Below, piece by piece: positions 12,471 to 48,070 of a stretch of DNA of 64,000 nucleotides. The stretch is taken from NCBI GenBank assembly GCA_000091205.1, contig AP006499.2; one strand, written 5' to 3'. Origin of the DNA: Cyanidioschyzon merolae (Eukaryota). A program made the position numbers and the translations under genes. How positions within the stretch are numbered: position 1 is the stretch's first letter; every line of letters begins with the position of its first letter. The notes under the pieces were generated by a model. It saw only the letters and a program-made list of their open reading frames with translations. It did not search any database and was not told the origin of the DNA.

Positions 12471-15400
12471 TCACAATACAGTCGTCAACGTCGACGATGG
12501 CGCCACGGACACTGCGACGCCAGCCTCGCGCACACGCATCGTTCCGGGTGACGTAACCGCACGTGCGGTGCTTGCGTCCTTTCCGGTACTTGGGTCCAGG
12601 CGCAGCGCACGATACCGACCCTGACAACGAATGAGAAGACGCCTCCCATTCGAGGATGCATCCATCCAGGCCGCGCACGCACGCATCACCACGAGCTCGT
12701 GATCGCCCGCATCGACGAGTGCGTGCACCTCCGCGGCGAGCACCGCCGCCGCATCGCCGATTGCCGCACGAACGCTCTGCGTTACCGCTGGAGGCACCGC
12801 AGTCGCGGCGGACGCGGTACCCGTACGGAGCTCCGTGTCGAAGCGCACCTCGGCGACATATGTGCCGTCGTCGAAGCGTGACGTCAAGGCAGGTATGCCG
12901 CCGCCCTGTCGTGCATTCAGAATCTGGATACCAATGGTGACAGGCGCAGCAGGCGGCGTGCTTGTCGAGTAGGCCTCGCGGAGGCACCGCGCGAACGCTG
13001 CATCGCGTTGTATGTTGCACGACAGGAATGCAGCCGTGCGAGACGATGCGCTGCAGCGGAGCGATGTGACGCAGAGCCACTGCACGCTGCAGTCGGGGCG
13101 CTGCAGCGTCAGCACCGCAACCGCTTTGGGTAGGGCGCTTGCAAAGCGCCTGAGCTCCTCGGCTCGTTCAGCGGGTTCGCTTGCAGGTGCTCGGGGTACA
13201 CAACGCAGCTCGATCGTTCCGAGCTGATTCTGGAAATAGAGCAGCAGCCGCATCGGGTCTGGTGTGCCGAACGTCAGCTGCTGAACCTCGGCTACCACGA
13301 GATATTCGCCGAATTCTGGTGTCAGTGGATGCGTACGACGGACGTTGACCTGTAGCGCTGGTGCGCTAGGCAGCGCATCGCGTTCCAAGTTCAGGTCCGT
13401 GAGGTGCACCAACGAGCCGCAGGCCTGGGAAGCGCCGCGCATTCGGGCGAGCGCGAAGATTCGCTCGACCAGTGGCTGATGCGCATTCGTTAGAAGGTAC
13501 AGGGACAGCGCATCGGGTAAACCAATGTGACCGTGAGCGCTCAGCGCGACGTCTTCATGGATAGGCTTCTCGTCGCCACTGCAGGTATCTGCGGGTTGCG
13601 TGCACGACCTCACGTCATCGACAACCATGTGAAAAGAAACGCACGGCGGTGAAAGCGAACAGACTGCAACCGTGTCGACGAGTGCAATTCCGAGCGTATT
13701 CGTTGATGGCAGCGCTGCGACGACAAGAAATAGGACACGCGGTAGGAGCGCTGCTGCCGCTGAGCAGGCCATGAAACCGGTCTTCAACTCGGGTAGGATG
13801 CGCGGGCTTGCCGCACGCGGTGTGCTCTCTATGCGCGGCCCCTTTTCGAATTCAGACCGCATCAGAACGGCAACCGAGGGTAATGGCTGAAACGGAGGCA
13901 CATAAAAGACGCTTCGCTCGCTTTTCGCCGCGTTCTTGGAGTATATCTGCCTCGTGACCAGACAGTATGCAAGAACTTGTGGGTGCCCTTGCAACCATTC
14001 AGCCGCGTCCGATGCCTTCTGAAACGTCATTGCTGCGGTGGCCAGAGCGTCCGCTGTGGCTGCATCCTTTGCAAGCACCGTCGCCGACGCTATCGAATCC
14101 TTGGTGGCCCGCTGGACGCGTCTCGTGAGCGGGCACAATATATGATAGAAGCCGAAACGCTCCATCTGGTAGTAATCTCCAGACGTAGCGAGTCCGAAGC
14201 CTTCATCACTGTCTTCGAATGCCAGCGAAAAGGCTGCATCCTTGAGGCACGGTATCCACGTCCGCGCTCCGTGTTTCCATCCGGAAAACAGTTGCTCTAG
14301 CGGTGGCGGGCGAATCACCAGCGTTCGCCACGGGCGACCACTGGGATGTCGTCCCCAGGCCCTAATTTCGCTACCCCAGTCCAGAAATGCTCCAACAAGT
14401 TGATAAGCGCCCTCCGGCGAATCAGCGGATACTGCTGCGCTCTCCGCACCAGAGACACTCGATTCAAGGCCGCCAGCCGCCGGCGATATCCTATTCTCTA
14501 GCGATTTTCCATTATTATCTGTTGCTGGTGCTGCTGCAGGAGCAACAAGTTCGCTAGATTGTAGCTTTGATTGATCGTCCAGCCGCAGACGCTCTGCTCC
14601 AAAGCGCTCTCGCAAAGTCCTGTCAATCTGATCAATGATCCAGCCTTTCAGCATCCCATCCAGATCGATACACACACCGCTGCGCGTCAGCACAAGCGCA
14701 CCGGGGTGTCCCGGGCGCGGTGCTTGCAACCGCACGAGCTCAGACCATCCGACCTTTTCCCAATCAAGTTGAAAACGCTCTTCCTTGGGGGGGGCGCTGC
14801 AGAGCACTGCTGCGCAGCGTCGCCCTGAAACCACGCCACAGCGCACCGCATGTCGGATCGAAACGCCCACCAGTGACCCGATGCAAACGATGCGCCTCTG
14901 CCAACAATGCGTACAAAATTGTACCAACTTCGACAGCCTTTTTCGGATGCGCGCTGCTGCACGCTGCGCTCAGCTCCGAGTCGGGATTCCACCGATTCGC
15001 GATGCGTTCGCAAGCGTGCATGTGGGCGCGCAAGCACGCGTGCACTGCGCGTAAGAGCGACTCGGGAACGCAAGCGTCCATCACGCATTCGGGTGCAGCG
15101 GACGATGCACCCAAAGCCGCCCAGTGCATCTGAAGTTGCAATGCGATTCCGAACGCCTTGCCTGAAAACACGACAAGCACGCGATCTTGGTAAGCTTGCT
15201 GGACAACGGAATCGAGCGATAGATCGAGCGGCGACGGGGGCGCGCCGATGCCGCCCGCCGCCGCTCCCTCGTTCGTGGCATCTGATGTAGCATCGAACCG
15301 ACACCAGGCGTCATCGTGGGCGTTAAGCACCTCCTGGTGCACCGCTGCGCCATCTTCCGCAACGAGGTCCGCTGAGGAATCCTCCATACTATACGCTGCC

Positions 15401-33439: not shown

Positions 33440-36400
33440 ATTATGCGGGTTCTCCTTTCTTTTTTGTGTGTTTTCTTTCAGTGCGCGGCGACGTATCCAC
33501 CAACCCCCTACCTCCAAGTTACATACCCTTTACTGATTCCAGGATATTCTGGTCGTTTCATACGTCCCATCGCGTGTGCCTCGTACCTGCCGTTCCGTAT
33601 TCGCCTTTGCGCTTGAACGCTGGAGCAGATAGTTCATGGAGCTGGAACAGCTTTTCTACACCACAGAGGGCGTCGGCTCGAGGCGTGCTTCACCCGACGT
33701 AGAATCGGATCTCGTCGTCAGTTTGTGCTCGGACAGTCTGCGGATGCAGGCTTGTCTTCGCTGCACGACACGCTGGAGAAACTTGGTTGTTAGGATATAT
33801 CGTGGAAGCCGCCTCTCTCCTTTGTGATCATGCATGGAATGCGTTGTTGTCGGTTGGCAATGCGGGTTTGTGCTTGACACCCACCACAGTGGGTAGGCGC
33901 AAAGAGCGCACTGAGCCCATGTGCGCATCCGATTCGCTGGACCTTCCGCCTAGAAGGTAGCATGTGAGTTTGTTCGCCACTAATGAGCGCTGAGGCTCGG
34001 TTAGCGGACCATCAGTTGCCAGTGCTACACTCAGGGTGAGTGTCCGGCCTTTTGCTATCACGGTGATGTCCAGCTGCTGCTGTCCTTCAAGGAGCTCGCT
34101 GCGCTCCTGCTTCGAGCGCGGGCACTGTAAGCCCAAATATGTCAGCGTCTCGGGGGTCTGGTCTCCAGAGCAGGGACAGTGTGACTCCCAGTGCGACTCC
34201 AGTGTTCCTATACGGCTTAGAGCCGGTGCTGGTAGCCAGATGCCACCAACGCGGATTTTGGCGAGCCACTGGGTACCTCGAGCAAGTCCCGGGAATTCCA
34301 GCGCCTCCCACCAGTACTTGCACGTGTTTGCTAGGTTGTAGTTCCGGTATACAGTCAAGCCGGCGTTAAGGGCGCGATTTGTTCCGTGTCTACGTTCCCA
34401 TATTGTTTGGACCGTTCGCTTGAGGCGGCGGGAGCCTTGTACATTTCTGGGGAACGATTGGAGCGCATTTTCGCCTAAGAGGCGCTTCAGCCAAATCTGC
34501 GCTGATTTCATCCAAGTGTTCTAGCGGTGCGTTGGGGTCTGCATGAAAATCCGACTCAAAGAGGTGCGCATAGTGGGCCCTTTGGCCCGTATACATGCCC
34601 GGCAGCCTGCTGCTATCGCTTCTGTCGAGGCTATTTGGAGTTCAAGTCCGAGTGCCAGCGCGGTGGTTGCTCTGCTCTGCACTGAGCATCCAACAACAAC
34701 GAGTCGCATTGCCCTGTTGGCGGCTGTCTGCGGACGCGAGGCATTTGTGTGCTTCATGCCGCACCACCCAGCACCCCAGGTCGTAGGCTGGATGATACAC
34801 ATCCTTAGTGCCCTCGTACGGATTGCTAAGGGGATAGAGGGGTCGGATAGGACTGGGCGTGCGATCGCTGTACGTCTACGCATCTTGGCGATCATCTCGT
34901 TAACGTGTGCCTTTTCGTCGAGCGTCAGCATGCGACAGACCCTGCAGATAGCGATATTTTTCCCCGATCGGACTTTCCTGATTCTGCAACCGCCACGAGC
35001 GATTGCGAATGCTCTGCGAGTCTCCATGGATGACCATGACGCCGCACTTCGATGCTCCTACGTTCATCTTCCAGCGATCGACCCAGGCGCTGACTTGTTC
35101 CATGCTACCCGCAAGCGTTTCCGGGGCGGGTGCCAACAACACGACATCGTCCGCGAATAGAAGGCCTGCGAGGCGGTTCCTATGCGAGGGCTCTTTACCG
35201 GGCTCTCCGCAGTCTATCCACGGCACCTCAAGTCCGTATTGTCTGCAGTTGTTCAGCGGATCGTTGATGAAGATGTTGAAAAGGAGCGGGGATGCGGGGT
35301 CGCCCTTTTGTAGTCCACGGCGGATTCTTATACAAGGGGTTCTTGAGCTGTCGCCCAGTCGGATGCGCATCCATGAGTCTGCATAGAGCGCACGGAAGAA
35401 CGCTAAGCACTTTCCGGAGACTACGGCACGTTCCATCTTCAAAAATAGAACCTCGTGCGGGACCGTGTCAAAGACCTTTTGGAAGTCGGTGAAGCATACG
35501 TAAGTTGGTTGTCGGTCACGAATAAAGCGACGTTGCGCCACTTCAATGAGGGTCAGGGCATGGCTCATGTACTCCTCGCGGCTCCGGAATCCAGCCTGCC
35601 CTGGGGCGAAGAACTTGCGTTGCTCGAGGCCCCTCTGAGTCCGGTTCGTGGGAATGGCGCAAAGTAGCTTTATGATTGACGGGATGAGGCGCATAGTCCG
35701 GTAGTTGTTCATGTCTGTGTGGGAGTCTTTTTTGAGGATCGGTACGACTTCGGCAGTCCTCCATACATCCGGGATGTACGTTTCTTCGAACATGCCTTGG
35801 ATGAGCTCCACAAGGCGTTTGCCTAAGCTTGTGTCAGGTTCATCTGGTATCGATGGTGTCCCTGTTGTCCCGTCTTTTGGGGTCGTCAGTTTCATCCACT
35901 CCGCAGGGATACCGTCGATGCTAGGTGTTTTGCGGTTGCATGACCTTAAGAGGGTCCGAACAGATTCAGGCCAGAAGATTGGCTCGTTCCATTCCGGTAC
36001 CGGGTCGAGGCGCGGTAGTTCTGCGGCATACTGGTGCCAATAGATTCGGTTTTGGCAGTGCCCAGTTGCGTCTTCATGTAATTCTGTGCCGTGGTCCGTC
36101 CAGGCCTCATTCACTGAGGCACCCTCCGTCCTCAGCGCTTCCTTATAAACGATTGGTGTGAGCCCCAGACACTTTTTTGGTGGGTCAAGTCTCGATCGGA
36201 TATAGCGCTAGGTCTCATCTTCGTTGGTGCTCTCGAGCATAGATTTCGCCAGGGAGGCGATTTTGCGGTTTCGATCCTCCTGTTTGTCTTCTCTGGAAAG
36301 TTTCTTCTTTCTTTTGATAGCTTCCTCATGTTGCGCCTGTAGCGCCGGTAGCGCTGCCTTCGCTTCCTTGTCTCCGGCGTTGGCGCGTATGGCGGTGCGT

Positions 36401-36750
36401 TTGACGATCTTATAGAGTCGGTGGCATTCATCAATCCGAGTTTTGGTACATCGTTTCAGGTACTGCGGTTTGCAACTGTTGCGTTCTGGTGCAAGCCGTC
36501 CCGGTTGGTCTAATGATTTGCATGCACGGCTTTTCGGTTCTTCAGCGCTGTGGGTAGGTGACTGAGTTGGGTGACGGCTTTCTTGAGTTCCTGCAGGGGT
36601 GCCCTTTCGGGGGATGACTTGTGATGGGCTCGTTTCGGAGTTCTTCTTTCTAGTCTTCTGTTTTTTCTCGTTGGGCTTCTTCTTCTTCGGGCGCTTTCCT
36701 GAGCTGCTTTCTCTGGATATTTTGCATCTAGGTGGATCATGAGGTTTCTG
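33440..36750 (-). mobile_element. L1-like non-LTR retrotransposon relic (RT plus zf-RVT), 5'-truncated and frameshifted
   Basis: ORF 34900..36114(-) is an RT: FFAPGQAGF, FTDFQKVFDTV, GLQKGDPASPLLFNIF, LLFADDVVL. ORF 33828..34511(-) has the zf-RVT motif HCPCSGDQTPETLTYLGLQCP. The two are in different frames with a bridging fragment (34521..35027). No APE domain upstream. An A-rich (minus-strand) stretch near 33450-33480 is a candidate 3' tail. Boundaries approximate. Confidence 0.6.
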
Positions 36751-37026
36751 TGCCTCCTTCTCCGTATCTGGTTGGGTCTCTTTCGCTATTGTAGAGTCCT
36801 CTATTGGTGTCTCTTCTTCGTTAATGTACTGATATTTCGTTAGCTTTTCTCGGAAGGCTGCAAGTGACCTGTTGGTTACTCTCCGGGCTTGGTGGTATGA
36901 AGCGATGCACTGCGTTGCACCGGCGCGCCGCTGCTACCCAGAGGCCGCGCCCTCGACCAGCGTCGCCGCCAAACCGTGCGCGCCCTATCTTGTACTTCGA
37001 GTCGGTTTCATCGTTCTTGTCGAAAA

Positions 37027-37523
37027 TGGCAGACGACGATGCTACTTTCGAGCAGGTATTACGCATGTACGGCAGCAAAACACCAAAATCACAAAAGATG
37101 CTCGCGTTTGTAGACTCCTTGATCCTTTTTCTCGTACCGCTGCTCGCGTACTGCGGGTTTCTGTTCCAGGTGGACGGACGCGATCCACTAATACTGGGAA
37201 CGCTGCTCACCAGTGCGTTGATTGTTATTCCGCTGCTATGGGTTTCTCACATTCGGTATGCACGTGCTAAGCTTGTGCAGCTCCAACGCACTGCAGCCGC
37301 GCCCCAGTCGGACGAAAAGCGTCTGGTACAAGTTGCCATGCTGCGGGCACTCGCTAGCAACAACATCTGGTACTTGGGACTCGTCGCGCTCTGCTGCGGT
37401 CACATTTTTAACGGGCGCTTCTTCGATGCGCTGAACTTTGGCATATCATCGTTGCTGGGAGCGTCGTTTCTTCTGGTAAACGCCTCTGCAGCAATGCAAG
37501 TTGCTCGCGAGAAACGTGCGTAG
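37027..37523 (+). CDS. hypothetical small multi-pass membrane protein
   Basis: MADDDATFEQVLRMYGSKTPKSQKMLAFVDSLILFLVPLLAYCGFLF...; three to four hydrophobic helices. ATG at 37027. No family assigned. Confidence 0.4.
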
Positions 37524-37801
37524 GAGCCGCTGAAGCACTTCCGTTCGACTCTGGAAACAAGGCGAATCGCGCGTGTACCAGTTTTACATATGGAAAATCT
37601 CGCAGTTCATTCGTTCATTCAACAGATGCAGCCATTCGAGGATGATGCGTCCCGCTGCCGCGCTGAACACGCAGCCAGCAACAGCCAGCCTTTGGCGAAC
37701 GCACAAAAGAAAAAGCACGAGAGCACCCCAGACTTAACAGGATGCATTGAATGCAACGGATAGGTCTTGTATTTGGACGACGGATGTGCATGTCGCGGAA
37801 G

Positions 37802-38419
37802 CTATCGAGTAATGCCATGCGAGAGGTCCACGAGGCCGCGATTGGGCTCCAAGCCTTTGGCCTTTAGCAATTCCAGAACCTTGGGCAGGGAGTCTCGTTG
37901 GCGCTTTCTATGGAGCTGACTCGCAACAGCGGTAAAGTGCGACGGTCGCAGACAGCTCGGTGGACTCTCCTCCAAAGCTCTCAAGGCGACTGCGGGGGCC
38001 TCTAGCTGACACGCTCGTCGCACGAAGTCTGAAACAAGAACCGAGTTCAGCAGCTTGGCGTTACAAAGCGCTTCCCAGAGCTGCGCAAGCGCCTCGGCGT
38101 CTTGCAACTTCGCAACCGTATAGCGGAGTGCTTGCGTGGCGATCAAGTTCTTGCAACCGAACTGTTCGGGGTTTTGTACAAGTTCTAAAATGCGATCGAA
38201 ACGTCCAGCGCGCAGGCAAGCACGCACGTATAGGCTCCAGGTATACTTGCTTAGCGGGATAAAGCGCCGGTGAAACTCCTTCTGTAAACGCGTGGCAGTG
38301 TCCAGGTCCTCTGAGTTTTCAACTTTTCGCAGAATCTCGCGAAAGACCTTTCTCCCAGGAGCTTGATCAGCAACCAGGCTTCTTTGTGCACGCTGAACTA
38401 GCTCAACCAGACTTCCCAT
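37802..38419 (-). CDS. hypothetical alpha-helical repeat protein
   Basis: ORF 37802..38533(-); internal Met MGSLVELVQ... Helical-repeat composition with no confident family match. Confidence 0.3.
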   Translation of the reverse strand: MGSLVELVQRAQRSLVADQAPGRKVFREILRKVENSEDLDTATRLQKEFHRRFIPLSKYTWSLYVRACLRAGRFDRILELVQNPEQFGCKNLIATQALRYTVAKLQDAEALAQLWEALCNAKLLNSVLVSDFVRRACQLEAPAVALRALEESPPSCLRPSHFTAVASQLHRKRQRDSLPKVLELLKAKGLEPNRGLVDLSHGITR

Positions 38420-38848
38420 GCAAGCTCTAGGTATATTTGGGTGCTGCAGGGTGCCAACAGCCAACTTTGCAACCAGTGCTCGGGGCAAGGCACTGGAACG
38501 GAGCGGGGGGCGCCCAGGGTGCCGCGGACGCATTCGGCGTCGTCAGCGCCACCGCCGAGAATGCAGGGCATGTGGGCATTACGCTCTTGCGGCGTGTGGC
38601 GTTGTGCTTCAGGAAACGAGGACTGGGTACAGAGAACGGGGCGGGGAGCAGGGTTGCAGGGTAAGCAAAGGCATCTTGTGGCTGTTTCTGTGCGGGCTTA
38701 CGTCGGACAGTCGCCGCAAGCCAGCCGAGACGCGAGACCTTGCGGTAAAACGGCCACAGCTGCTGCCTCTGCAGCAAGCCGCGCGATCCCACGGAGTAAG
38801 ACGAACGCCTGCGACCGTGGACGCTACTAGCGCCATTAAGGTTTCCAG

Positions 38849-38992
38849 TCCGTGCTGGTGACCTATGTATAGTGTGTCGTAGACGCCAGGGTAGATGCTG
38901 CTGCGTTCTGGAGCGCCCATGCCGTGCTGGCAACCTATAAATCGCATTTCGTGGACGCCGAGGTAGATGCTGCTGCGTTCCTCTGCCAGCCT
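38849..38992. repeat. 2 x 72-bp tandem duplication
   Basis: ccgtgctgg..acctat...tcgt.gacgcc.gggtagatgctgctgcgttc occurs at 38849 and again at 38921 with a few substitutions. Confidence 0.8.
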
Positions 38993-40178: not shown

Positions 40179-41087
40179 CTAAGCGTTACAGGGCGGCGCT
40201 CTCCAGAATGCAATCGGTTGCTCTTTCCAGAAACGCCTATCTCCAATATCCGTAACGACGACACGCAGCATATAATGGACAGAGAAGAGACCACAAACAT
40301 CTTCATAGGTTGGTGTAAGGTCATCGAATTGTCTCAAGAAGATGCGGATCGGTAGCTTGCAGGCTGGTTTCGGTGAGCCAGCGAGTACCTGAAAACTCCC
40401 CACGAGCACAGATTGCATCGGCAACGAGAAACCGCTTTCCTGCCGCCGTATCTCGATATCCGCTCGGCGAATGGCGATATGGTTGTCTAGGAAAGTGAGT
40501 GAGCCAACGATGACGTCCTCAATGGAATACGCTCGGCGATCTAACTGTAGCTCCAGGTTCAGAATATCTTCGAGACCCGCGTTGAAGTGAATGGCGGGGA
40601 AGAACCTGGGGGCTCGCTGCGATAATCGAACTACAACTTCCACACCAGTACTCCGTGAAGATAGACCGGAATATCCGTGAAAACTCAACACCACTCGATA
40701 TACGCAGCGAACTCGTGTGCTCTCGTAGGTGTCGTGGACGAGTTCTGCGCACCGGAAAGCGAACGGCAAAGAAACGGCCGCGTGAGGCTCCAGCTTCACG
40801 GACTCCGGTTTAAAGCTCAGTGTGCGCGAAAACACCTCCCAGTCACGTTGAGAAATGCCATACCCAACCGAGACCAGCGCCACCAGCTTCACTGTCAGGA
40901 GCGTGCACGGAAGCGGAAACGTTACCCGAGAGCGCACCACCGCACAGCCCGTGATTTGATCGCCCGTCGTGTAGATAGCCCGATTCTTGGGGTCTCGGGA
41001 CCTGAACGATCCCTCATCTAGCGATATCTGGAGATCAACGCGGTTTTGCAACGCCCAGCGGTACCGCAAGTGACGAAACAAAGACAT
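40179..41087 (-). CDS. VPS26-family (retromer / DSCR3-like arrestin-fold) protein
   Basis: LELQLDRRAYSIEDVIVGSLTFLDNHIAIRRADIEIRRQE and C-terminal TPTYEDVCGLFSVHYMLRVVVTDIGDRRFWKEQPIAFWR match the VPS26 pattern (KDVIVGKIYF...; FSVRYFLNLVL.DEEDRRYFKQQEI.LWR). ATG 41085-41087. Confidence 0.75.
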   Translation of the reverse strand: MSLFRHLRYRWALQNRVDLQISLDEGSFRSRDPKNRAIYTTGDQITGCAVVRSRVTFPLPCTLLTVKLVALVSVGYGISQRDWEVFSRTLSFKPESVKLEPHAAVSLPFAFRCAELVHDTYESTRVRCVYRVVLSFHGYSGLSSRSTGVEVVVRLSQRAPRFFPAIHFNAGLEDILNLELQLDRRAYSIEDVIVGSLTFLDNHIAIRRADIEIRRQESGFSLPMQSVLVGSFQVLAGSPKPACKLPIRIFLRQFDDLTPTYEDVCGLFSVHYMLRVVVTDIGDRRFWKEQPIAFWRAPPCNA

Positions 41088-41465
41088 GGTTGCCGCCTCT
41101 AGAGCCGAGACTCCCCGCGCGGACGCGAGCGTTGCATACGCACTGGTGTCCGCGGTTCCCCCACGCATACCGCACTAAGTTGGCGCGATCCACTCAAACT
41201 GACTCAGAAAACAGTCCGGACTCATGTTCCCAGATGCCACGCGCAGCGCTCACCACTGCTCAACAACAATCAATCGTTACGAATGCATCTGCACACCAGG
41301 GACTGTAGCACCAGCCTGCAGATCGCGCTCCCGAACGGCGACTGTGTCAGGCGGCAGCAATCGGGCATCCCGCCGATTCCTGCGCCAGGATGATCCCGCA
41401 GGCTCGTCGATGCCGTCGATCTTCCGCGCATCGTGTGCACCGCCGCTCGCGCGACGCCGCCGTCG

Positions 41466-41472
41466 CTGCGAT

Positions 41473-41500
<28 letters not shown>
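41466..41500. repeat. (GCAC)8 microsatellite
   Basis: gcacgcacgcacgcacgcacgcacgcacgcac read directly. Same motif as 10189. Confidence 0.9.
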
Positions 41501-41509
<9 letters not shown>

Positions 41510-41829
41510 CGGCGTTTGTAGACGGCGCTTCGGAACAAGGCGGTTTGTGAGCACTCCTTACATTCCCGACTCGGAGAGCAGCTTCGAAAAGAGCGGGGTT
41601 GGGAGCGGAACTCAAGTCGCACGAGTAAACGGGTGCTAAGGAGCGGTCCCGCATAACCGGTGAACGTCCCTGACGCTGAAATTGCGCACCAGCGACTGTT
41701 TTTCGGCAACCAAGTGCGCAGTTCAGTTGCGCTGTGCGTAACCTTTGGAGTCTGCTGGTTTGTACAAGCGAGATACTATATTTTGCACGAAGTGTGACAT
41801 ATTTTCTGGTCGCTCTTGAACCGATTAGA

Positions 41830-42924
41830 ATGCAGGCTTTTGTGGGCACCTTTACTGCCGCACGAGGCGGCTTCGTTTCTGCAAGGCGTGACGCGTTCCT
41901 GTGCGGTGCGGGACAGGTGCGCCCCGCAGCGCCGGTCGTACAGGCCGCGCCTCAGACCCTTGTCATGTCCGGGAAGACGACGGCGCTTCGTGGTAGAATC
42001 CGCACGATAAAAAACACCCAGAAAATCACAGAAGCAATGCGCTTGGTGGCTGCTGCGAAGGTGCGACGCGCACAAGATGCTGTTTTGAGGACGCGTCCAT
42101 TCTCAGATACACTGCAGAAGGTGCTCGGTGGCCTGCTCAGCCGCTTGAACTCTACGGAATACTTCGACCTGCCTTTGCTGAAGCAACGCGAAACAAAAAA
42201 GGTTCTGCTGGTAGCCATCAGCGGCGATCGCGGTCTCTGTGGCAGCTACAACTCGAGCATTCTCCGCAAGCTTCAGCTACGTATCAATGAACTCAAGGCG
42301 CAGAGCCTCGAGGTTGAGCTGGTCACGGTTGGAAGCAAGGTGACGCAGTGGGCACGTCGCCGAAACTACAAGATTCGACGCTCATTTTTATGTACGCAGC
42401 AGCCGACGTCATCCCAGGCGACGGAGATAGCGGATGTTTTGCTGGCGGCGTATCTGGGCGACGATGTGCAGCGGGTGGAGTTGCTCTACACGCGTTTCGT
42501 GTCATTGATCAGTTCCAAGCCCAGTATTCGGACAATGTTACCGCTAACTCCAGTAGGTCTGGAAATGGAAGGTGATGAGATCTTCCAGCTGACAACCGAG
42601 GAGGGCAAGTTCGCTGTCAAACGTTCGTTCCAGAAGCCGTCGCCCGAAGCGATCGAGATTACGCCTGACATGATCTTCGAGCAGGATCCGCTGCAGCTGC
42701 TCAACGCGCTACTGCCGCTGTACTTCAATGGGCAGCTCCTGCGAACGCTCCAGGAATCTGTGGCGGGAGAGCTTGCAGCGCGCATGTCGGCCATGTCGAG
42801 CGCCAGCGACAACGCCAAAGAACTCGCTCGCAAGCTCAACATCGAGTTCAACCGCGCACGGCAGTCCGCGATCACATCGGAACTTGCGGAGATTGTTGGC
42901 GGTGCTGCGGCCCTGGAGGGTTAA
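41830..42924 (+). CDS. atpC: ATP synthase gamma subunit, plastid/cyanobacterial type, with N-terminal presequence
   Basis: LRGRIRTIKNTQKITEAMRLVAAAKVRRAQDAVLRTRPF; EQDPLQLLNALLPLYFNGQLLRTLQESVAGELAARMSAMSSASDNA; ...ITSELAEIVGGAAAL. RRAQ/RPF and EQDP blocks are chloroplast/cyanobacterial signatures. No Cys-pair regulatory insert between TMLPL and EEGKF. First ATG 41830 (MQAFVGTFTAARGG...). Confidence 0.85.
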   Translation: MQAFVGTFTAARGGFVSARRDAFLCGAGQVRPAAPVVQAAPQTLVMSGKTTALRGRIRTIKNTQKITEAMRLVAAAKVRRAQDAVLRTRPFSDTLQKVLGGLLSRLNSTEYFDLPLLKQRETKKVLLVAISGDRGLCGSYNSSILRKLQLRINELKAQSLEVELVTVGSKVTQWARRRNYKIRRSFLCTQQPTSSQATEIADVLLAAYLGDDVQRVELLYTRFVSLISSKPSIRTMLPLTPVGLEMEGDEIFQLTTEEGKFAVKRSFQKPSPEAIEITPDMIFEQDPLQLLNALLPLYFNGQLLRTLQESVAGELAARMSAMSSASDNAKELARKLNIEFNRARQSAITSELAEIVGGAAALEG

Positions 42925-44025: not shown

Positions 44026-44898
44026 ATGCTAACAGCGTCGTCACCTGCAAAGACACAGACGGAACGCATCAAAATCATTAGGCCCAGTGGTATGACACTG
44101 GGCCAATTGCACACGCTCATAGAGTATGAGCCGACGATACGAACCCCCTTGGAAACTGTTGCAAGCGATTTCGCAGAGGTGCTCGGTGAACAGGTGGTGC
44201 TAACTCGCGGCGCTGAGGTGGTTGAAAAAGCGCCACCGGTCAAACGGGACGTGCTAGGAGAATGGTTGACCAGCTCTGGTGGCGGTGGCGGTGGCGGTGG
44301 TATTCTGACGCAGCTGCCGGCCTCACAGCGCTTCACCACAGCACCCGACGCGGCGCCGCTGGTGCTGCTGTCGGGCTCTTTCAACCCGTTGCACGAAGGG
44401 CATCGCCAGTTGCTCGAGGCGGCACGGAAAATGGTGGCGTGGGATGCTCGTGGCGGCTTTGAAATATCCGTGCTCAACGCGGACAAGGGGGCTATCTCCG
44501 AGGGGGAACTGCACCAACGCCTGCGCCAGTTCGCAGGCTATCGACCCGTGACCCTTACCAGAGCACCGCTGTTTACCGACAAGGCAAAGATTCTTCCTGG
44601 ACGAGTTTTCGTCATCGGAGTCGATACGATGCTACGGCTCGTCGATGCACGATACTACGGAGGCAACGAAACGAAGATGCGCGAGGCGCTCGAGGAAATC
44701 GAACGCTGCGGTTGCCGCTTTCTGGTAGCGGGACGCAAGGACCCGCGCGCTCCAAACCAGAACGACGCCCCGTTCCTGACCCGTGACGACGTCAGCATCC
44801 CACTGGGGCTCGAGTCGCTCTTCGGCAGCATTCCAGAACGACTGTTCCGGGTCGATTTGCGGTCAACAGATTTGCGCGAGGCGTTTACGCGCTCCTAA
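44026..44898 (+). CDS. NMNAT/NadD-like nucleotidyltransferase with N-terminal extension and poly-Gly tract
   Basis: LLSGSFNPLHEGHRQLLEAA (HxGH motif) and C-terminal DLRSTDLREA (SST-x-IR-like). (GGT/GGC)n 44278-44306 encodes SSGGGGGGGG. First ATG 44026. Confidence 0.55.
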   Translation: MLTASSPAKTQTERIKIIRPSGMTLGQLHTLIEYEPTIRTPLETVASDFAEVLGEQVVLTRGAEVVEKAPPVKRDVLGEWLTSSGGGGGGGGILTQLPASQRFTTAPDAAPLVLLSGSFNPLHEGHRQLLEAARKMVAWDARGGFEISVLNADKGAISEGELHQRLRQFAGYRPVTLTRAPLFTDKAKILPGRVFVIGVDTMLRLVDARYYGGNETKMREALEEIERCGCRFLVAGRKDPRAPNQNDAPFLTRDDVSIPLGLESLFGSIPERLFRVDLRSTDLREAFTRS

Positions 44899-44917: not shown

Positions 44918-47900
44918 TCAGAGGTTGCCAGCTGCTGCGATGACCAAGGCATCGGGGTCTACCCAGCGGCGAATCGCGGTGTTCACCTCGTCGACGGTCA
45001 GGGATCCGATGCGATCCACGTAGTCGTCAACCCAGGTCAGAGGTCGGCCTTCATCCAAAGTGCTCATGATTGCACCAGCGAGACCACGAGTAGTGGCAAG
45101 ACCCACCTGATAACTACCATACACCGTTGCTTTCTTGGCGTCCAGCTCCGCCTGTGTAACACCATCATGATACCAGCGTTCGACCTGCTCCAAAGTAGCG
45201 GCTACGCCTCGTTCGACGTTCGTGGATCCAAAGGTTGCGCCGATCCGCCACAGGCCGTCGGTACCGAGTTCAGCACCTTCAACACCTGCGCCTATACCGT
45301 AGGTTAGACCGAGCTCGTCGCGAACCACTTGCATTAAGCGCGAGGAAAAGTTTCCACCGAGAATAAAGACGCCCATAGCGAGTGCGTAATACTCGGGGTG
45401 GTTGGAATCCATGCCCAGGGACTGCCCGATCTGCACGTCGACGCTGTCCTTGTCTGGTACACGATACGTTCGCCAGCTGGAAACCGAAGATGGATGTTTT
45501 GTGCTCGCGTTCGCCACGGTGACGCGGTCTAACGCGCGGAGTTCCAGGGGCAACGTTGCGGGAAACCCGCTGCGGCGCCATCCGCTTGGGCAGGTTGCTT
45601 CCAACAGGGACCGCGTTTCCTGCGGATCGACGTCACCTACGGCAATAAAGCGTGCATCGCTACCAAAACCATACATACGAGCGAAACGCTCCACATCGTC
45701 CACCTTGAGTGCACGAAGCGATTCTATGAGCTCCTCCAAAGGATATACAAAGTTGGGATGGCCGCGCGGAAACAGCGCCGCTGAGAAAAGCTCATCGGCC
45801 CGACGGCCTGTACTCTCTTTGGAGGCCTCGAGGTCGCCCAGAAAGCGCAGCTTGGCCATTTCAAAGTCATTCATGTCCAGACGAGGTTCGGTAAGCTGTT
45901 CCATCAGCAAACTTGCAACAAGAGGGAGATCCTTGCGCAAGCAGCGCCCGCGGAAGCGCAAGCGATTGCGGGTAACACCAAAGCTCACACGCGCGCCGAC
46001 ATTCTCCAGGAGTTCCGATATCGCAAACTTGTCCCGGTGGCGTGATCCCTGATCAAACATATCCGACACCATCTCCGCTACCATGAGCGAGCCAAACGGT
46101 TCGCGATCGCCATGATCTGTACCACCGGCTAGGGAGCCGACCAGCGTCACCACCTCCTCGGCTGCAGTGCGTAGCGTGAACTGCGTCAGGCCGCCTTCAA
46201 ACAGCATCTCACGATGTGTTCGCGCTGCTATGCGACTTCGAGGCACAGCCGGAGCTGGGCTCCCCGAAGCCTCCGCACCCGCTGTCGTCGACCGTCGCTT
46301 CTGCGTCGTCAGCGGGAGCGCTGTTGGCGCCACTCGGGTCGCTTCACGCCGCTGCGCGTCCATGGAGCTCTCTGCGTCTTCTACGATCCGACCGGCTGGC
46401 GCTGCTGCAGCGTCTTCATGATCGATAAACGCAGGATCCTCTTGGACATCGTCGTCTTCTGAGCGAAGCGGTACGAACCATCCGGTCGTACTCGCGTCCT
46501 CGCGGAAATATCGTTGAGCAGCTCTCTGAACGTCCTCCAGGCGAACCGGCTCGATACGATTCCGACAGAAAGCCGTCCAGTCGCCCATGGCAAGCGACTC
46601 GTTCAGGCCGTCGGCGATCCCGAACGTACCATCGCGGGAGAACTTGAGATACGCATTCACTTGTGATTTCGCGCGTTCGAGCTCTGCCAGCTCAATACCC
46701 TCCTTCTTGATCTGCTCTATCTCTTCCCAAAGTATTCTCTCTACCGTGGGAGAATCCGCCTGAGGGGTCAGGAAACAGTATATCTGAAAGAGGCCAGGAT
46801 CTCTGAAAGAACTCTCCCAAGCGTAGACGCGCGTAGCCAGTCCCGCATCCACAATGCGTCGATAGAGTCGTCCGGTCTTGCCGCCGGACAGTGCAACAGA
46901 CAGTACCGCTAACGCCGGAGCGTCCTCGTGCAGCCCCGGTGGCGCCTTGAATGCAATACCGATAATATGTTGTCGTCCGCTGCGTTTCACGATGAGTCGC
47001 CGCGGCCCGCGTTGCACGTCCTCTTGCGGGACGACCTGCTTCTCTTGTATCGAATGCGTTGAAGCGGGTAAAGGTCCAAAATACTGAGCTACCCATCCGA
47101 GTACCGTACAGGTGTCAGGTATATCTCCGATGATAGAGAGCGTCGCATTATTCGGATGATAAAAGGTATCATAAAACCTTCGCAGCGCAGCAGCGGTCGC
47201 ATGCTCGATATCGTCTCGCCAGCCGATTGTCGGATGGTGGTACGGATGGGCTTGATACGCCGTTGCCCATATCTCCTTGTCCAACGCTTGGAAATTATCA
47301 TTTTCGCCTCTTTCATATTCGTTTCGGACCACGGTTTTCTCAGCGAGAAGGTCCTCTTCGCGAAGCAGGGCATGACGCATGCGATCGGCTTCAATGGCAA
47401 TGGCCTCTTCGATGAACTCCGACGGCAGGACTGCGTAGTAGTTTGTTCGATCGAACCAGGTGGAGGCGTTAACATTTGCGCCAATGTTCTGGAGCACTGT
47501 CCATATGGGTCGTCCGGTTTCCTTGTTGTAGTGGCGGGAGCCCTTGAACATGAGGTGCTCCAGCAAATGCGTGCTGCCGGTGATCCCCGCAGCTTCGTTC
47601 CTGGACCCGACGAGGTACGTGATCATGACCGTGGCGACCGGTGCAGCGGCGTCCCGACGCAGCAGGACTCGCAGTCCGTTGGCATCGAGCTGGTACTCGC
47701 TGATGCCCGCCACCTGCTGAACGAAGCGGAAAGCGGGGTGTCCCTCGTTCGTCGGCAACGCACTCGCCCCAGTTGATGTTACTTGGTGCGCGTTTTCAAC
47801 AGCTCCGCTGGTGTCTGACGCCGAAGTACGAGGCGTATGGTCCCCTGCGCACGCGCTGATGTGGCGGCTCGTCTCTCGAGCACGTCCACGGCAGCAGCAC

Positions 47901-48070
47901 GAACAACAGCTGCCGCCTTGAGGTGACTGGAAACCTTTCCGAGCGTACTGGGCGCCACGAAAGAGCCGATATGGCAAAGATCGCGCTGCTTTACTCAACA
48001 AGTGTTTGCATGGAATAAAATGCGCAAACATGAGCGCTTTTCTTCGAGTCGAAACCTCTTGACGCTGCAT
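44918..48070 (-). CDS. M16 (pitrilysin/insulinase family) zinc peptidase with two tandem M16 domain pairs and a basic N-terminal presequence
   Basis: GSTHLLEHLMFKGS (inverted HxxEH). A second half from about residue 700 has its own M16-like pair. Track ORF runs to 48679, but the likely start is the internal Met MQRQEVSTRRKALMFAH... near 48070. Confidence 0.75.
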   Translation of the reverse strand: MQRQEVSTRRKALMFAHFIPCKHLLSKAARSLPYRLFRGAQYARKGFQSPQGGSCCSCCCRGRARETSRHISACAGDHTPRTSASDTSGAVENAHQVTSTGASALPTNEGHPAFRFVQQVAGISEYQLDANGLRVLLRRDAAAPVATVMITYLVGSRNEAAGITGSTHLLEHLMFKGSRHYNKETGRPIWTVLQNIGANVNASTWFDRTNYYAVLPSEFIEEAIAIEADRMRHALLREEDLLAEKTVVRNEYERGENDNFQALDKEIWATAYQAHPYHHPTIGWRDDIEHATAAALRRFYDTFYHPNNATLSIIGDIPDTCTVLGWVAQYFGPLPASTHSIQEKQVVPQEDVQRGPRRLIVKRSGRQHIIGIAFKAPPGLHEDAPALAVLSVALSGGKTGRLYRRIVDAGLATRVYAWESSFRDPGLFQIYCFLTPQADSPTVERILWEEIEQIKKEGIELAELERAKSQVNAYLKFSRDGTFGIADGLNESLAMGDWTAFCRNRIEPVRLEDVQRAAQRYFREDASTTGWFVPLRSEDDDVQEDPAFIDHEDAAAAPAGRIVEDAESSMDAQRREATRVAPTALPLTTQKRRSTTAGAEASGSPAPAVPRSRIAARTHREMLFEGGLTQFTLRTAAEEVVTLVGSLAGGTDHGDREPFGSLMVAEMVSDMFDQGSRHRDKFAISELLENVGARVSFGVTRNRLRFRGRCLRKDLPLVASLLMEQLTEPRLDMNDFEMAKLRFLGDLEASKESTGRRADELFSAALFPRGHPNFVYPLEELIESLRALKVDDVERFARMYGFGSDARFIAVGDVDPQETRSLLEATCPSGWRRSGFPATLPLELRALDRVTVANASTKHPSSVSSWRTYRVPDKDSVDVQIGQSLGMDSNHPEYYALAMGVFILGGNFSSRLMQVVRDELGLTYGIGAGVEGAELGTDGLWRIGATFGSTNVERGVAATLEQVERWYHDGVTQAELDAKKATVYGSYQVGLATTRGLAGAIMSTLDEGRPLTWVDDYVDRIGSLTVDEVNTAIRRWVDPDALVIAAAGNL

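What the first reader, a model, noticed from the sequence alone, without database searches (positions are those of the whole stretch)
41830..42924. Plastid-type ATP synthase gamma lacking the redox-regulatory Cys cassette
Signature blocks (AAAKVRRAQ...RPF; EQDP...LLPLY...LRTLQES...ELAARM...DNA) are chloroplast/cyanobacterial, not mitochondrial. Between TMLPL and EEGKF there is no C-x5-C thiol-regulation insert, the state seen in cyanobacteria and red-lineage plastids rather than green algae and plants. The presequence (MQAFVGTFTAARGGFVSARRD...) is Ala/Arg-rich. Together with single-exon genes this constrains host identity and implies a non-thiol-regulated plastid ATPase.
Basis: partly seen in the sequence, partly recalled or inferred. 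Interest (0 to 1): 0.5.

Follow-up and report, generated by a model that had tools for sequence, protein, structure and literature searches.

The report
Red-algal chloroplast ATP synthase gamma gene
This is the already annotated nuclear gene for the chloroplast ATP synthase gamma subunit of the red alga Cyanidioschyzon merolae, and its lack of the two light-switch cysteines is the published, normal state for red algae, so the finding is correct but ordinary.

Summary
Window 41830-42924 (+) is one uninterrupted 364-codon ORF encoding an F-type ATP synthase gamma subunit (Pfam PF00231, E 5e-88). It is much closer to chloroplast and cyanobacterial gamma (PDB E 1e-93 to 1e-82) than to mitochondrial gamma (about 1e-29). 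It carries the roughly 30-residue phototroph-specific insertion. It has a clean 9-residue gap exactly where spinach and a second solved chloroplast gamma (22vl_D) have the C-x5-C thioredoxin switch. All 119 closest relatives checked share this short, Cys-pair-free form.

The protein is 100% identical to BAM82005.1 / XP_005538041.1, "chloroplast F-type ATPase CF1 subunit gamma, precursor", of Cyanidioschyzon merolae 10D. Its three neighbours are identical to the three flanking accessions. Kondo et al. 2021 (PMC8390522, Fig. 1B) already align this C. merolae protein. They state that rhodophytes, like cyanobacteria, have the phototroph insertion but not the redox hairpin.

Nothing here is new. 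No experiment on thiol independence of the C. merolae enzyme was found, so that point remains an inference. Minor by-products are a conserved N-terminal M-x-A-F-V transit-peptide motif and a Cys (C188) common in the red lineage that is probably structural.

The parts
41830..42924 (+). Complete single-exon nuclear gene atpC: precursor of chloroplast ATP synthase CF1 gamma subunit, 364 aa plus TAA stop
   Evidence: ORF. PF00231 E 4.8e-88 covering residues 51-362. TIGR01146 E 6.9e-94. Exact identity to BAM82005.1 / XP_005538041.1 of C. merolae 10D.
41830..41964 (+). Presequence (plastid transit peptide), residues 1-45, with N-terminal MQAFV Phe motif. The cleavage site is inferred to lie near M46-G48.
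   Evidence: This extension has no counterpart in the mature chloroplast or cyanobacterial chains. The first residues of the spinach alignment (C41, A42) pair with query S47 and G48. AF2 pLDDT is below 50 for residues 1-28 and 41-45, with no secondary structure. Composition is 22% Ala, net +3, one acidic residue. An M-x-A-F-V start is shared with Cyanidiococcus, Purpureofilum and Porphyridium gamma. An N-terminal Phe motif in red-algal and glaucophyte precursors is described in PMC2222254. Import and the cleavage site were not tested.
41965..42921 (+). Mature gamma subunit, residues 46-364: N-terminal helix 49-87, Rossmann-like domain 124-237, C-terminal helix 287-363
   Evidence: AF2 model with mean pLDDT 78.4 and pTM 0.69; the Rossmann core and C-terminal helix are mostly at or above 88. 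Foldseek best hit is spinach 6fkf_g, TM 0.88, rmsd 2.6 A, 49% identity.
42238..42240 (+). Cys137 in GDRGLCG, by my numbering the equivalent of spinach Cys89; invariant
   Evidence: Cys in 123 of 123 aligned sequences and invariant in alignment A1.
42391..42393 (+). Cys188 in RRSFLCTQQ, a Cys common in red-lineage gamma but absent from the green and cyanobacterial references. Probably a buried structural position.
   Evidence: Cys in 104 of 123 sequences. The others have I, T, M, L or G. Spinach has G; 22vl_D and T. elongatus have L; Galdieria has T, I or M; Porphyridium has I. It lies two residues after strand 182-186 of the model.
42556..42561 (+). Site of the missing redox cassette, between G243 and L244. 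Spinach and 22vl_D carry 9 extra residues here, including the two regulatory Cys.
   Evidence: 9-column gap in the query and in 119 of 119 relatives, against EICDINGKC / ELCDVDGKC in the two chloroplast references. The same gap appears in the HMMER alignments.
42559..42633 (+). Phototroph-specific insertion, about residues 244-268 (LEMEGDEIFQLTTEEGKFAVKRSFQ), predicted beta-hairpin 250-257 / 260-267
   Evidence: Between shared anchor positions the query has 42 residues where 2qe7_G (a bacterial gamma) has 13: query 241-283 against chain 193-206. The segment aligns without gaps to the T. elongatus 5zwl_G hairpin segment. AF2 predicts two strands here, but at low confidence, pLDDT about 48-51. 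The role of this hairpin in MgADP inhibition was shown for cyanobacteria in PMC8390522.

Best explanation
This is the nuclear, intron-less atpC gene of the red alga Cyanidioschyzon merolae 10D. It encodes the precursor of the gamma (central rotor) subunit of the chloroplast F1Fo ATP synthase.

Shown here: it is a full-length gamma of the cyanobacterial/chloroplast type. It carries the roughly 30-residue phototroph-specific insertion, lacks the extra 9-residue Cys-x5-Cys segment of the green lineage, and has a 45-residue N-terminal extension.

Inferred: the extension is a transit peptide whose N-terminal Phe motif (MQAFV) directs import into the plastid, and it is removed near residues 46-48. 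The mature subunit forms the coiled-coil shaft inside alpha3beta3. Because no disulfide switch exists, the enzyme is not turned on and off by thioredoxin. Wasteful ATP hydrolysis in the dark is instead restrained as in cyanobacteria, by MgADP inhibition stabilised through contact of the gamma beta-hairpin with the beta DELSEED loop, together with the epsilon subunit. The short form is the ancestral state; the cassette is a green-lineage addition.
For: ORF and motifs. Family: PF00231 E 4.8e-88; TIGR01146 E 6.9e-94 and NF004145 328 bits, above its 317 cut-off. Type: chloroplast and cyanobacterial PDB chains at 1e-93 to 1e-82, non-phototroph bacterial at about 1e-46, mitochondrial at about 1e-29. 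Fold match to spinach 6fkf_g TM 0.88 and T. elongatus 5zwl_G TM 0.86. Insertion present: 42 against 13 residues relative to 2qe7_G. Cassette absent in the query and in 119 of 119 nearest relatives, present in the spinach and 22vl_D references. In the NJ tree the query sits with Cyanidiococcus (88% identity) and three unnamed close relatives, inside a cluster whose named members are red-lineage; the spinach, 22vl_D and T. elongatus references fall outside it. Identity: exact match to BAM82005.1, 'chloroplast F-type ATPase CF1 subunit gamma, precursor', C. merolae 10D. Flanking genes exactly match BAM82004 (VPS26), BAM82006 and BAM82007 on a 1,232,258-bp record. The surrounding ORFs are eukaryotic nuclear genes: Brix, CPSF100, DWNN, eIF2D, RPL6e, VPS26. 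Literature: Kondo et al. 2021 align C. merolae gamma and state that rhodophytes have the insertion but only green plants and chlorophytes have the redox hairpin; they also show the hairpin's role in MgADP inhibition. Redox control is described as green-lineage-specific and absent in diatoms. Presequence.
Against: Nothing contradicts the identification. The functional steps rest on homology. I found no biochemical or in vivo test of thioldependence for the C. merolae enzyme or any red-algal enzyme. The hairpin is modelled with low confidence, pLDDT about 50. The transit-peptide cleavage site and import were not tested. A second Cys common in the red lineage (C188) exists alongside invariant C137, and their distance could not be measured because the tools return no model coordinates.
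Confidence: 0.96

Rival explanations
1. It is the mitochondrial ATP synthase gamma subunit, and the presequence is a mitochondrial targeting signal.
For: The N-terminal extension is basic and Ala-rich with almost no acidic residues, which is also typical of mitochondrial presequences.
Against: Mitochondrial gammas score about 1e-29 and 105 bits, against 1e-93 and 317 bits for chloroplast gamma. TM to mitochondrial chains is 0.67-0.78, against 0.88 to spinach chloroplast gamma. The phototroph-only insertion is present. The named relatives are plastid-bearing red-lineage organisms. The gene is annotated as the chloroplast precursor. The N-terminal Phe motif is typical of red-algal plastid precursors.
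Confidence: 0.01
2. The enzyme is still thiol-regulated, through a different cysteine pair: invariant Cys137 and Cys188, which is common in the red lineage.
For: Cys188 is Cys in 104 of 123 aligned sequences, all of them red-lineage relatives of the query, and is absent from the two chloroplast references and the cyanobacterial reference. Cys137 is invariant.
Against: Where the position is not Cys it is I, M, L or T. That is the pattern of a buried hydrophobic site, not a redox site. Galdieria and Porphyridium lack it. From the model's strand and helix order, Cys137 begins the helix after strand 1, while Cys188 follows strand 3 and leads to a helix that, by Rossmann topology, should pack on the other face of the sheet. 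They are therefore unlikely to be within disulfide distance; this is inference, not measurement. Published statements treat redox control as green-lineage-specific.
Confidence: 0.03
3. The ORF is a cyanobacterial contaminant, a recent horizontal transfer, or a non-functional copy rather than the working plastid gene.
For: The mature part is 52% identical to T. elongatus gamma and has the cyanobacterial short form.
Against: It lies between eukaryotic nuclear genes (VPS26, eIF2D, CPSF100, RPL6e) on a 1.23-Mb C. merolae record. It has a eukaryote-type 45-residue presequence that is conserved in Cyanidiococcus. The ORF is intact and 88% conserved in that sister genus. The same gene order is seen on independent environmental contigs.
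Confidence: 0.01

Closest known systems
C. merolae 10D CF1 gamma precursor (BAM82005.1 / XP_005538041.1)
   Same: Identical over all 364 residues. The neighbouring genes are identical to BAM82004, BAM82006 and BAM82007.
   Different: Nothing; it is the same gene.
Cyanobacterial gamma, e.g. Thermosynechococcus elongatus (PDB 5ZWL)
   Same: 52% identity and a gap-free alignment through the insertion. It has the same short phototroph hairpin with no Cys pair. Regulation by hairpin-dependent MgADP inhibition was shown for this enzyme.
   Different: The cyanobacterial protein has no presequence and is encoded in the bacterial genome. It lacks Cys at the position of C188.
Green-lineage chloroplast gamma (spinach, PDB 6FKF / 6VON; a second chloroplast chain, 22vl_D)
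   Same: Nuclear-encoded precursor with a transit peptide, same fold (TM 0.88, 49% identity), and the same phototroph insertion.
   Different: Green gamma has 9 extra residues with Cys199 and Cys205 that form the thioredoxin-controlled disulfide. These are absent here.
Gamma of red-derived secondary plastids (diatoms and other stramenopiles, haptophytes)
   Same: 55-62% identity, the same Cys-pair-free short form, and mostly the same Cys at position 188. Diatoms are reported to lack the redox-sensitive pair.
   Different: Their precursors carry bipartite signal-plus-transit peptides for four-membrane plastids, e.g. Triparma MKVYAAVLLALLASASSFAP. C. merolae has a simple transit peptide.

Membership tests
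F-type ATP synthase gamma subunit (Pfam PF00231 / TIGR01146) | Full-length profile match above the curated cut-off | tested here: met
   PF00231 296 bits against cut-off 39.9, profile positions 3-285 of 285. TIGR01146 314.8 bits against 194.45.
F-type ATP synthase gamma subunit (Pfam PF00231 / TIGR01146) | Long N- and C-terminal helices (coiled-coil shaft) flanking a Rossmann-like alpha/beta domain | tested here: met
   AF2 model: helices 49-87 and 287-363, five strands at 124-237. TM 0.88 to 6fkf_g.
Phototroph (cyanobacterial/chloroplast) type gamma | Insertion of about 30 residues in the Rossmann domain, absent from other bacterial and mitochondrial gammas | tested here: met
   Query 241-283 (42 residues) against 2qe7_G 193-206 (13 residues). 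The insertion is defined as 30 or 39 residues in PMC8390522.
Phototroph (cyanobacterial/chloroplast) type gamma | Closer to chloroplast and cyanobacterial gamma than to mitochondrial gamma | tested here: met
   E 1e-93 to 1e-82 against about 1e-29. No tree with mitochondrial sequences was built, because no mitochondrial sequences were obtainable in full from the tools.
Nuclear-encoded plastid precursor (rhodophyte type) | Cleavable N-terminal transit peptide, with Phe near the N-terminus in red algae and glaucophytes | tested here: inconclusive
   A 45-residue disordered, Ala-rich, net +3 extension with F4, and an MxAFV motif shared among red-algal orthologues. The motif is described in PMC2222254. 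No targeting predictor was available, and import and cleavage were not tested.
Thiol-modulated (green-lineage) chloroplast gamma | 9-residue segment carrying the Cys199 / Cys205 (C-x5-C) pair at the N-terminal side of the insertion | tested here: not met
   A 9-column gap and no Cys in residues 233-261. There is no C-x(2-8)-C anywhere in the protein.
Thiol-modulated (green-lineage) chloroplast gamma | Thioredoxin- or DTT-dependent activation of the enzyme | not testable with these tools
   This needs biochemistry. No published assay on C. merolae was found.

The most novel reading that the evidence does not exclude
Red-lineage plastid ATP synthases may not simply be unregulated like cyanobacterial ones. 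They might carry their own lineage-specific control that involves Cys188 of gamma, possibly with invariant Cys137 or through thiol modification. Cys188 is Cys in 104 of the 123 aligned sequences, all of them red-lineage relatives of the query, and is absent from the spinach, 22vl_D and T. elongatus references.
Probability: 0.03. Interest if true: 0.5.

Novelty: already known. Interest (0 to 1): 0.08.

Why it matters
It matters little beyond correct annotation. The gene is in GenBank/RefSeq under the right name. The absence of the redox cassette in C. merolae and other rhodophytes has been shown in a published alignment (Kondo et al. 2021). The result does confirm that the window is C. merolae nuclear DNA. 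It also illustrates the accepted evolutionary picture: the phototroph hairpin is ancestral, and the 9-residue thioredoxin switch is a later addition of the green lineage. How red-algal plastids restrain ATP hydrolysis in the dark remains a fair open experimental question, but this sequence does not make it newly testable.

Tried and rejected
- **Frameshift or hidden exon hiding the Cys pair: rejected.** The ORF is continuous. It aligns without gaps to T. elongatus through the site, and all 119 relatives have the same 29-residue span.
- **Mitochondrial gamma: rejected**.
- **Alternative Cys pair.** C137 and C188 are the only Cys in the mature protein. The substitution pattern at position 188 (I, M, L, T) and the fold topology argue for a structural residue. 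The distance could not be measured because structure prediction returns no coordinates.
- **Literature search for direct biochemical tests of red-algal CF1 thiol regulation.** Nothing was found in the held library. A search for the Odontella gamma paper returned no papers.
- **Reference list of the diatom preprint.** I tried to read it for primary citations, but it is not held.
- **LTRs or inverted repeats around the reverse-transcriptase ORF.** None were found, only a 72-nt two-copy tandem repeat at 38845-38980.
- **Searches deliberately not spent.** I did not use the large metagenome or genome scans or the 1.84-billion-protein search, because exact identity to an annotated protein settled the question.

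Full report
**1. What is there**

Window 41830-42924 (+) is a single uninterrupted ORF: ATG, 364 codons, then TAA. The mechanical ORF list extends it upstream to a GTG at 41734. The first ATG is at 41830, which is the annotated start.

The protein matches Pfam PF00231 (ATP synthase gamma) over essentially the whole profile, with E 4.8e-88. It matches NCBIfam TIGR01146 with E 6.9e-94.

**2. Which kind of gamma**

| Comparison set (PDB) | Sequence E-value | Bits |
|---|---|---|
| Chloroplast gamma 22vl_D | 1.4e-93 | 317 |
| Spinach chloroplast gamma 6fkf_g | 1.3e-89 | 304 |
| Thermosynechococcus elongatus 5zwl_G | 1.1e-82 | 281 |
| Non-phototroph bacterial gammas | about 1e-46 | about 160 |
| Bovine, human and yeast mitochondrial gammas | about 1e-29 | about 105 |

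- An AlphaFold2 model was built on a 44-sequence alignment (mean pLDDT 78.4, pTM 0.69). It shows the expected N-terminal helix 49-87, a five-stranded Rossmann-like domain at 124-237, and a C-terminal helix 287-363.
- Foldseek places the model closest to spinach 6fkf_g (TM 0.88, rmsd 2.6 A) and then to T. elongatus 5zwl_G (TM 0.86). Mitochondrial chains score TM 0.67-0.78.
- Against the bacterial gamma 2qe7_G, the query has 42 residues (241-283) where that chain has 13 (193-206). This is an insertion of about 29 residues.
- That insertion is the phototroph-specific one. Kondo et al. 2021 describe it as 30 residues in cyanobacteria and 39 in chloroplasts, forming a beta-hairpin (PMC8390522).
- The model predicts two strands there (250-257 and 260-267), but with low confidence.

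**3. The redox cassette**

HMMER alignments put a 9-residue gap in the query opposite spinach GEICDINGKC and 22vl_D GELCDVDGKC. The alignment to T. elongatus is gap-free there.

I made a MAFFT alignment of the query, these three references and the 119 best database relatives.
- The query and all 119 relatives have the same 29-residue span from IRTMLPL to EEGKF.
- None of them has a C-x5-C. One relative (P0089) has a single Cys in the span.
- Only the spinach and 22vl_D references carry the cassette.

The complete protein has Cys only at residues 25 (presequence), 137 and 188, and no C-x(2-8)-C anywhere. The ORF is continuous and matches the length of its relatives, so no frame correction could restore a Cys pair.

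**4. Whose gene it is**

- The 364-aa sequence is an exact match to BAM82005.1 / XP_005538041.1, "chloroplast F-type ATPase CF1 subunit gamma, precursor", of Cyanidioschyzon merolae strain 10D.
- The left neighbour (40182-41168, -) is exactly BAM82004.1, retromer VPS26.
- The right neighbours are exactly BAM82006.1 (44026-44895, +; conserved hypothetical, cytidylyltransferase-like) and BAM82007.1 (44921-48070, -; probable M16 zinc protease).
- All four lie on a 1,232,258-bp record.
- The same gene order recurs on environmental contigs.
- Other large ORFs in the window are typical uninterrupted eukaryotic nuclear genes: Brix, inositol polyphosphate kinase, CPSF100, a DWNN/zinc-knuckle protein, histidinol dehydrogenase, eIF2D and RPL6e.
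- The next-best relative is Cyanidiococcus yangmingshanensis at 88% identity.
- In a neighbour-joining tree the query groups with Cyanidiococcus and three unnamed close relatives, inside a cluster whose named members are red algae, stramenopiles and a haptophyte. The spinach, 22vl_D and T. elongatus references fall outside this cluster.

**5. Presequence**

- Residues 1-45 have no counterpart in the solved chloroplast or cyanobacterial chains. The first aligned spinach residues (C41, A42) pair with query S47 and G48.
- These residues are disordered in the model.
- They are 22% Ala and 9% Arg, with a single acidic residue and net charge +3.
- The start MQAFV is shared with Cyanidiococcus (MQAFV), Purpureofilum (MSAFV) and Porphyridium (MSAFV), and approximately with other red algae.
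- An N-terminal Phe motif in red-algal and glaucophyte plastid precursors is described in the literature (PMC2222254).
- Met46, at the presequence/mature junction, is at least 90% conserved among 44 red-lineage sequences. I read this as a plausible relic of the cyanobacterial initiator Met; that is inference.
- Targeting and cleavage were not tested.

**6. How it most likely works**

Shown: this is a phototroph-type gamma with the hairpin insertion, without the disulfide cassette, and with an N-terminal extension.

Inferred from established knowledge of F1Fo and from Kondo et al. 2021:
- After import and cleavage, gamma forms the rotor shaft.
- The hairpin contacts the beta DELSEED loop and stabilises the MgADP-inhibited state.
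- With no Cys199/Cys205 equivalent, thioredoxin cannot gate the enzyme.
- Dark ATP hydrolysis is therefore limited as in cyanobacteria, by ADP inhibition and epsilon. Whether a protein inhibitor like the cyanobacterial AtpTheta also exists in red algae is unknown.
- Redox control is described as green-lineage-specific, and diatoms as lacking the pair.

I found no direct assay for C. merolae or any red alga. The "non-thiol-regulated" statement therefore remains a well-founded inference.

**7. Comparison with what is known, and novelty**

The gene is annotated under the correct name. Fig. 1B of Kondo et al. 2021 aligns the C. merolae gamma. [quoted passage not shown] The finding is therefore already known in every respect, down to the species.

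**8. By-product: Cys188**

Cys188 (RRSFLCTQQ) is Cys in 104 of 123 aligned sequences, all of them red-lineage relatives of the query. It is not Cys in spinach, 22vl_D, T. elongatus, Galdieria or Porphyridium.
- Where it is not Cys it is I, M, L, T or G, which suggests a buried structural position.
- By fold topology it should lie away from invariant Cys137. This is inference, because no coordinates were available.
- I give an alternative redox role about 3%.

**Verdict**

The gene is already known, and interest is low.

Noticed in passing
window 42391-42393 (Cys188 of the gamma precursor): A second Cys (RRSFLCTQQ) is Cys in 104 of 123 aligned sequences, all red-lineage relatives of the query. 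It is absent from spinach, 22vl_D, T. elongatus, Galdieria and Porphyridium, where it is replaced by I, M, L, T or G. It is probably a buried structural residue, and its distance to invariant Cys137 could not be measured.
   Followed up: partly
window 41830-41844 and 41965-41967: Red-algal gamma presequences share an N-terminal M-x-A-F-V motif (C. merolae, Cyanidiococcus, Purpureofilum, Porphyridium). Met46 at the presequence/mature junction is at least 90% conserved in 44 red-lineage sequences and may be a relic of the cyanobacterial start codon.
   Followed up: partly
window 34903-36114 (-), with surroundings about 34000-38000: An ORF with a reverse-transcriptase domain (PF00078, E 5e-20) lies in a stretch with strongly negative AT skew (-0.15 to -0.24). 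This is probably a retroelement, in a genome I recall being described as poor in transposable elements. No LTRs or inverted repeats were found within 32.9-39.6 kb.
   Followed up: partly
window 44921-48070 (-): The convergent downstream neighbour (one gene along) is a 1050-aa M16 zinc protease (Peptidase_M16 plus M16_C), BAM82007.1 'probable protease'. Whether it is an organellar processing or presequence peptidase was not examined.
   Followed up: no
window 12474-14927 (-): An 818-aa ORF combines an ApbE (flavin transferase) domain with a C-terminal flavin-reductase-like domain. This is an unusual-looking fusion for a eukaryotic nuclear gene.
   Followed up: no
window 41474-41511: A perfect (CGCA)x9.5 microsatellite lies in the VPS26 / atpC intergenic region, about 320 bp upstream of the atpC start codon.
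   Followed up: no
window 44278-44300: A (GGTGGC)x3.8 repeat encodes a poly-Gly run (GGGGGGGGG) inside the conserved hypothetical cytidylyltransferase-like protein BAM82006.1.
   Followed up: no
window 38845-38980: Two tandem copies of a 64-nt unit, 72 nt apart start to start, 80% identical. Function unknown.
   Followed up: no
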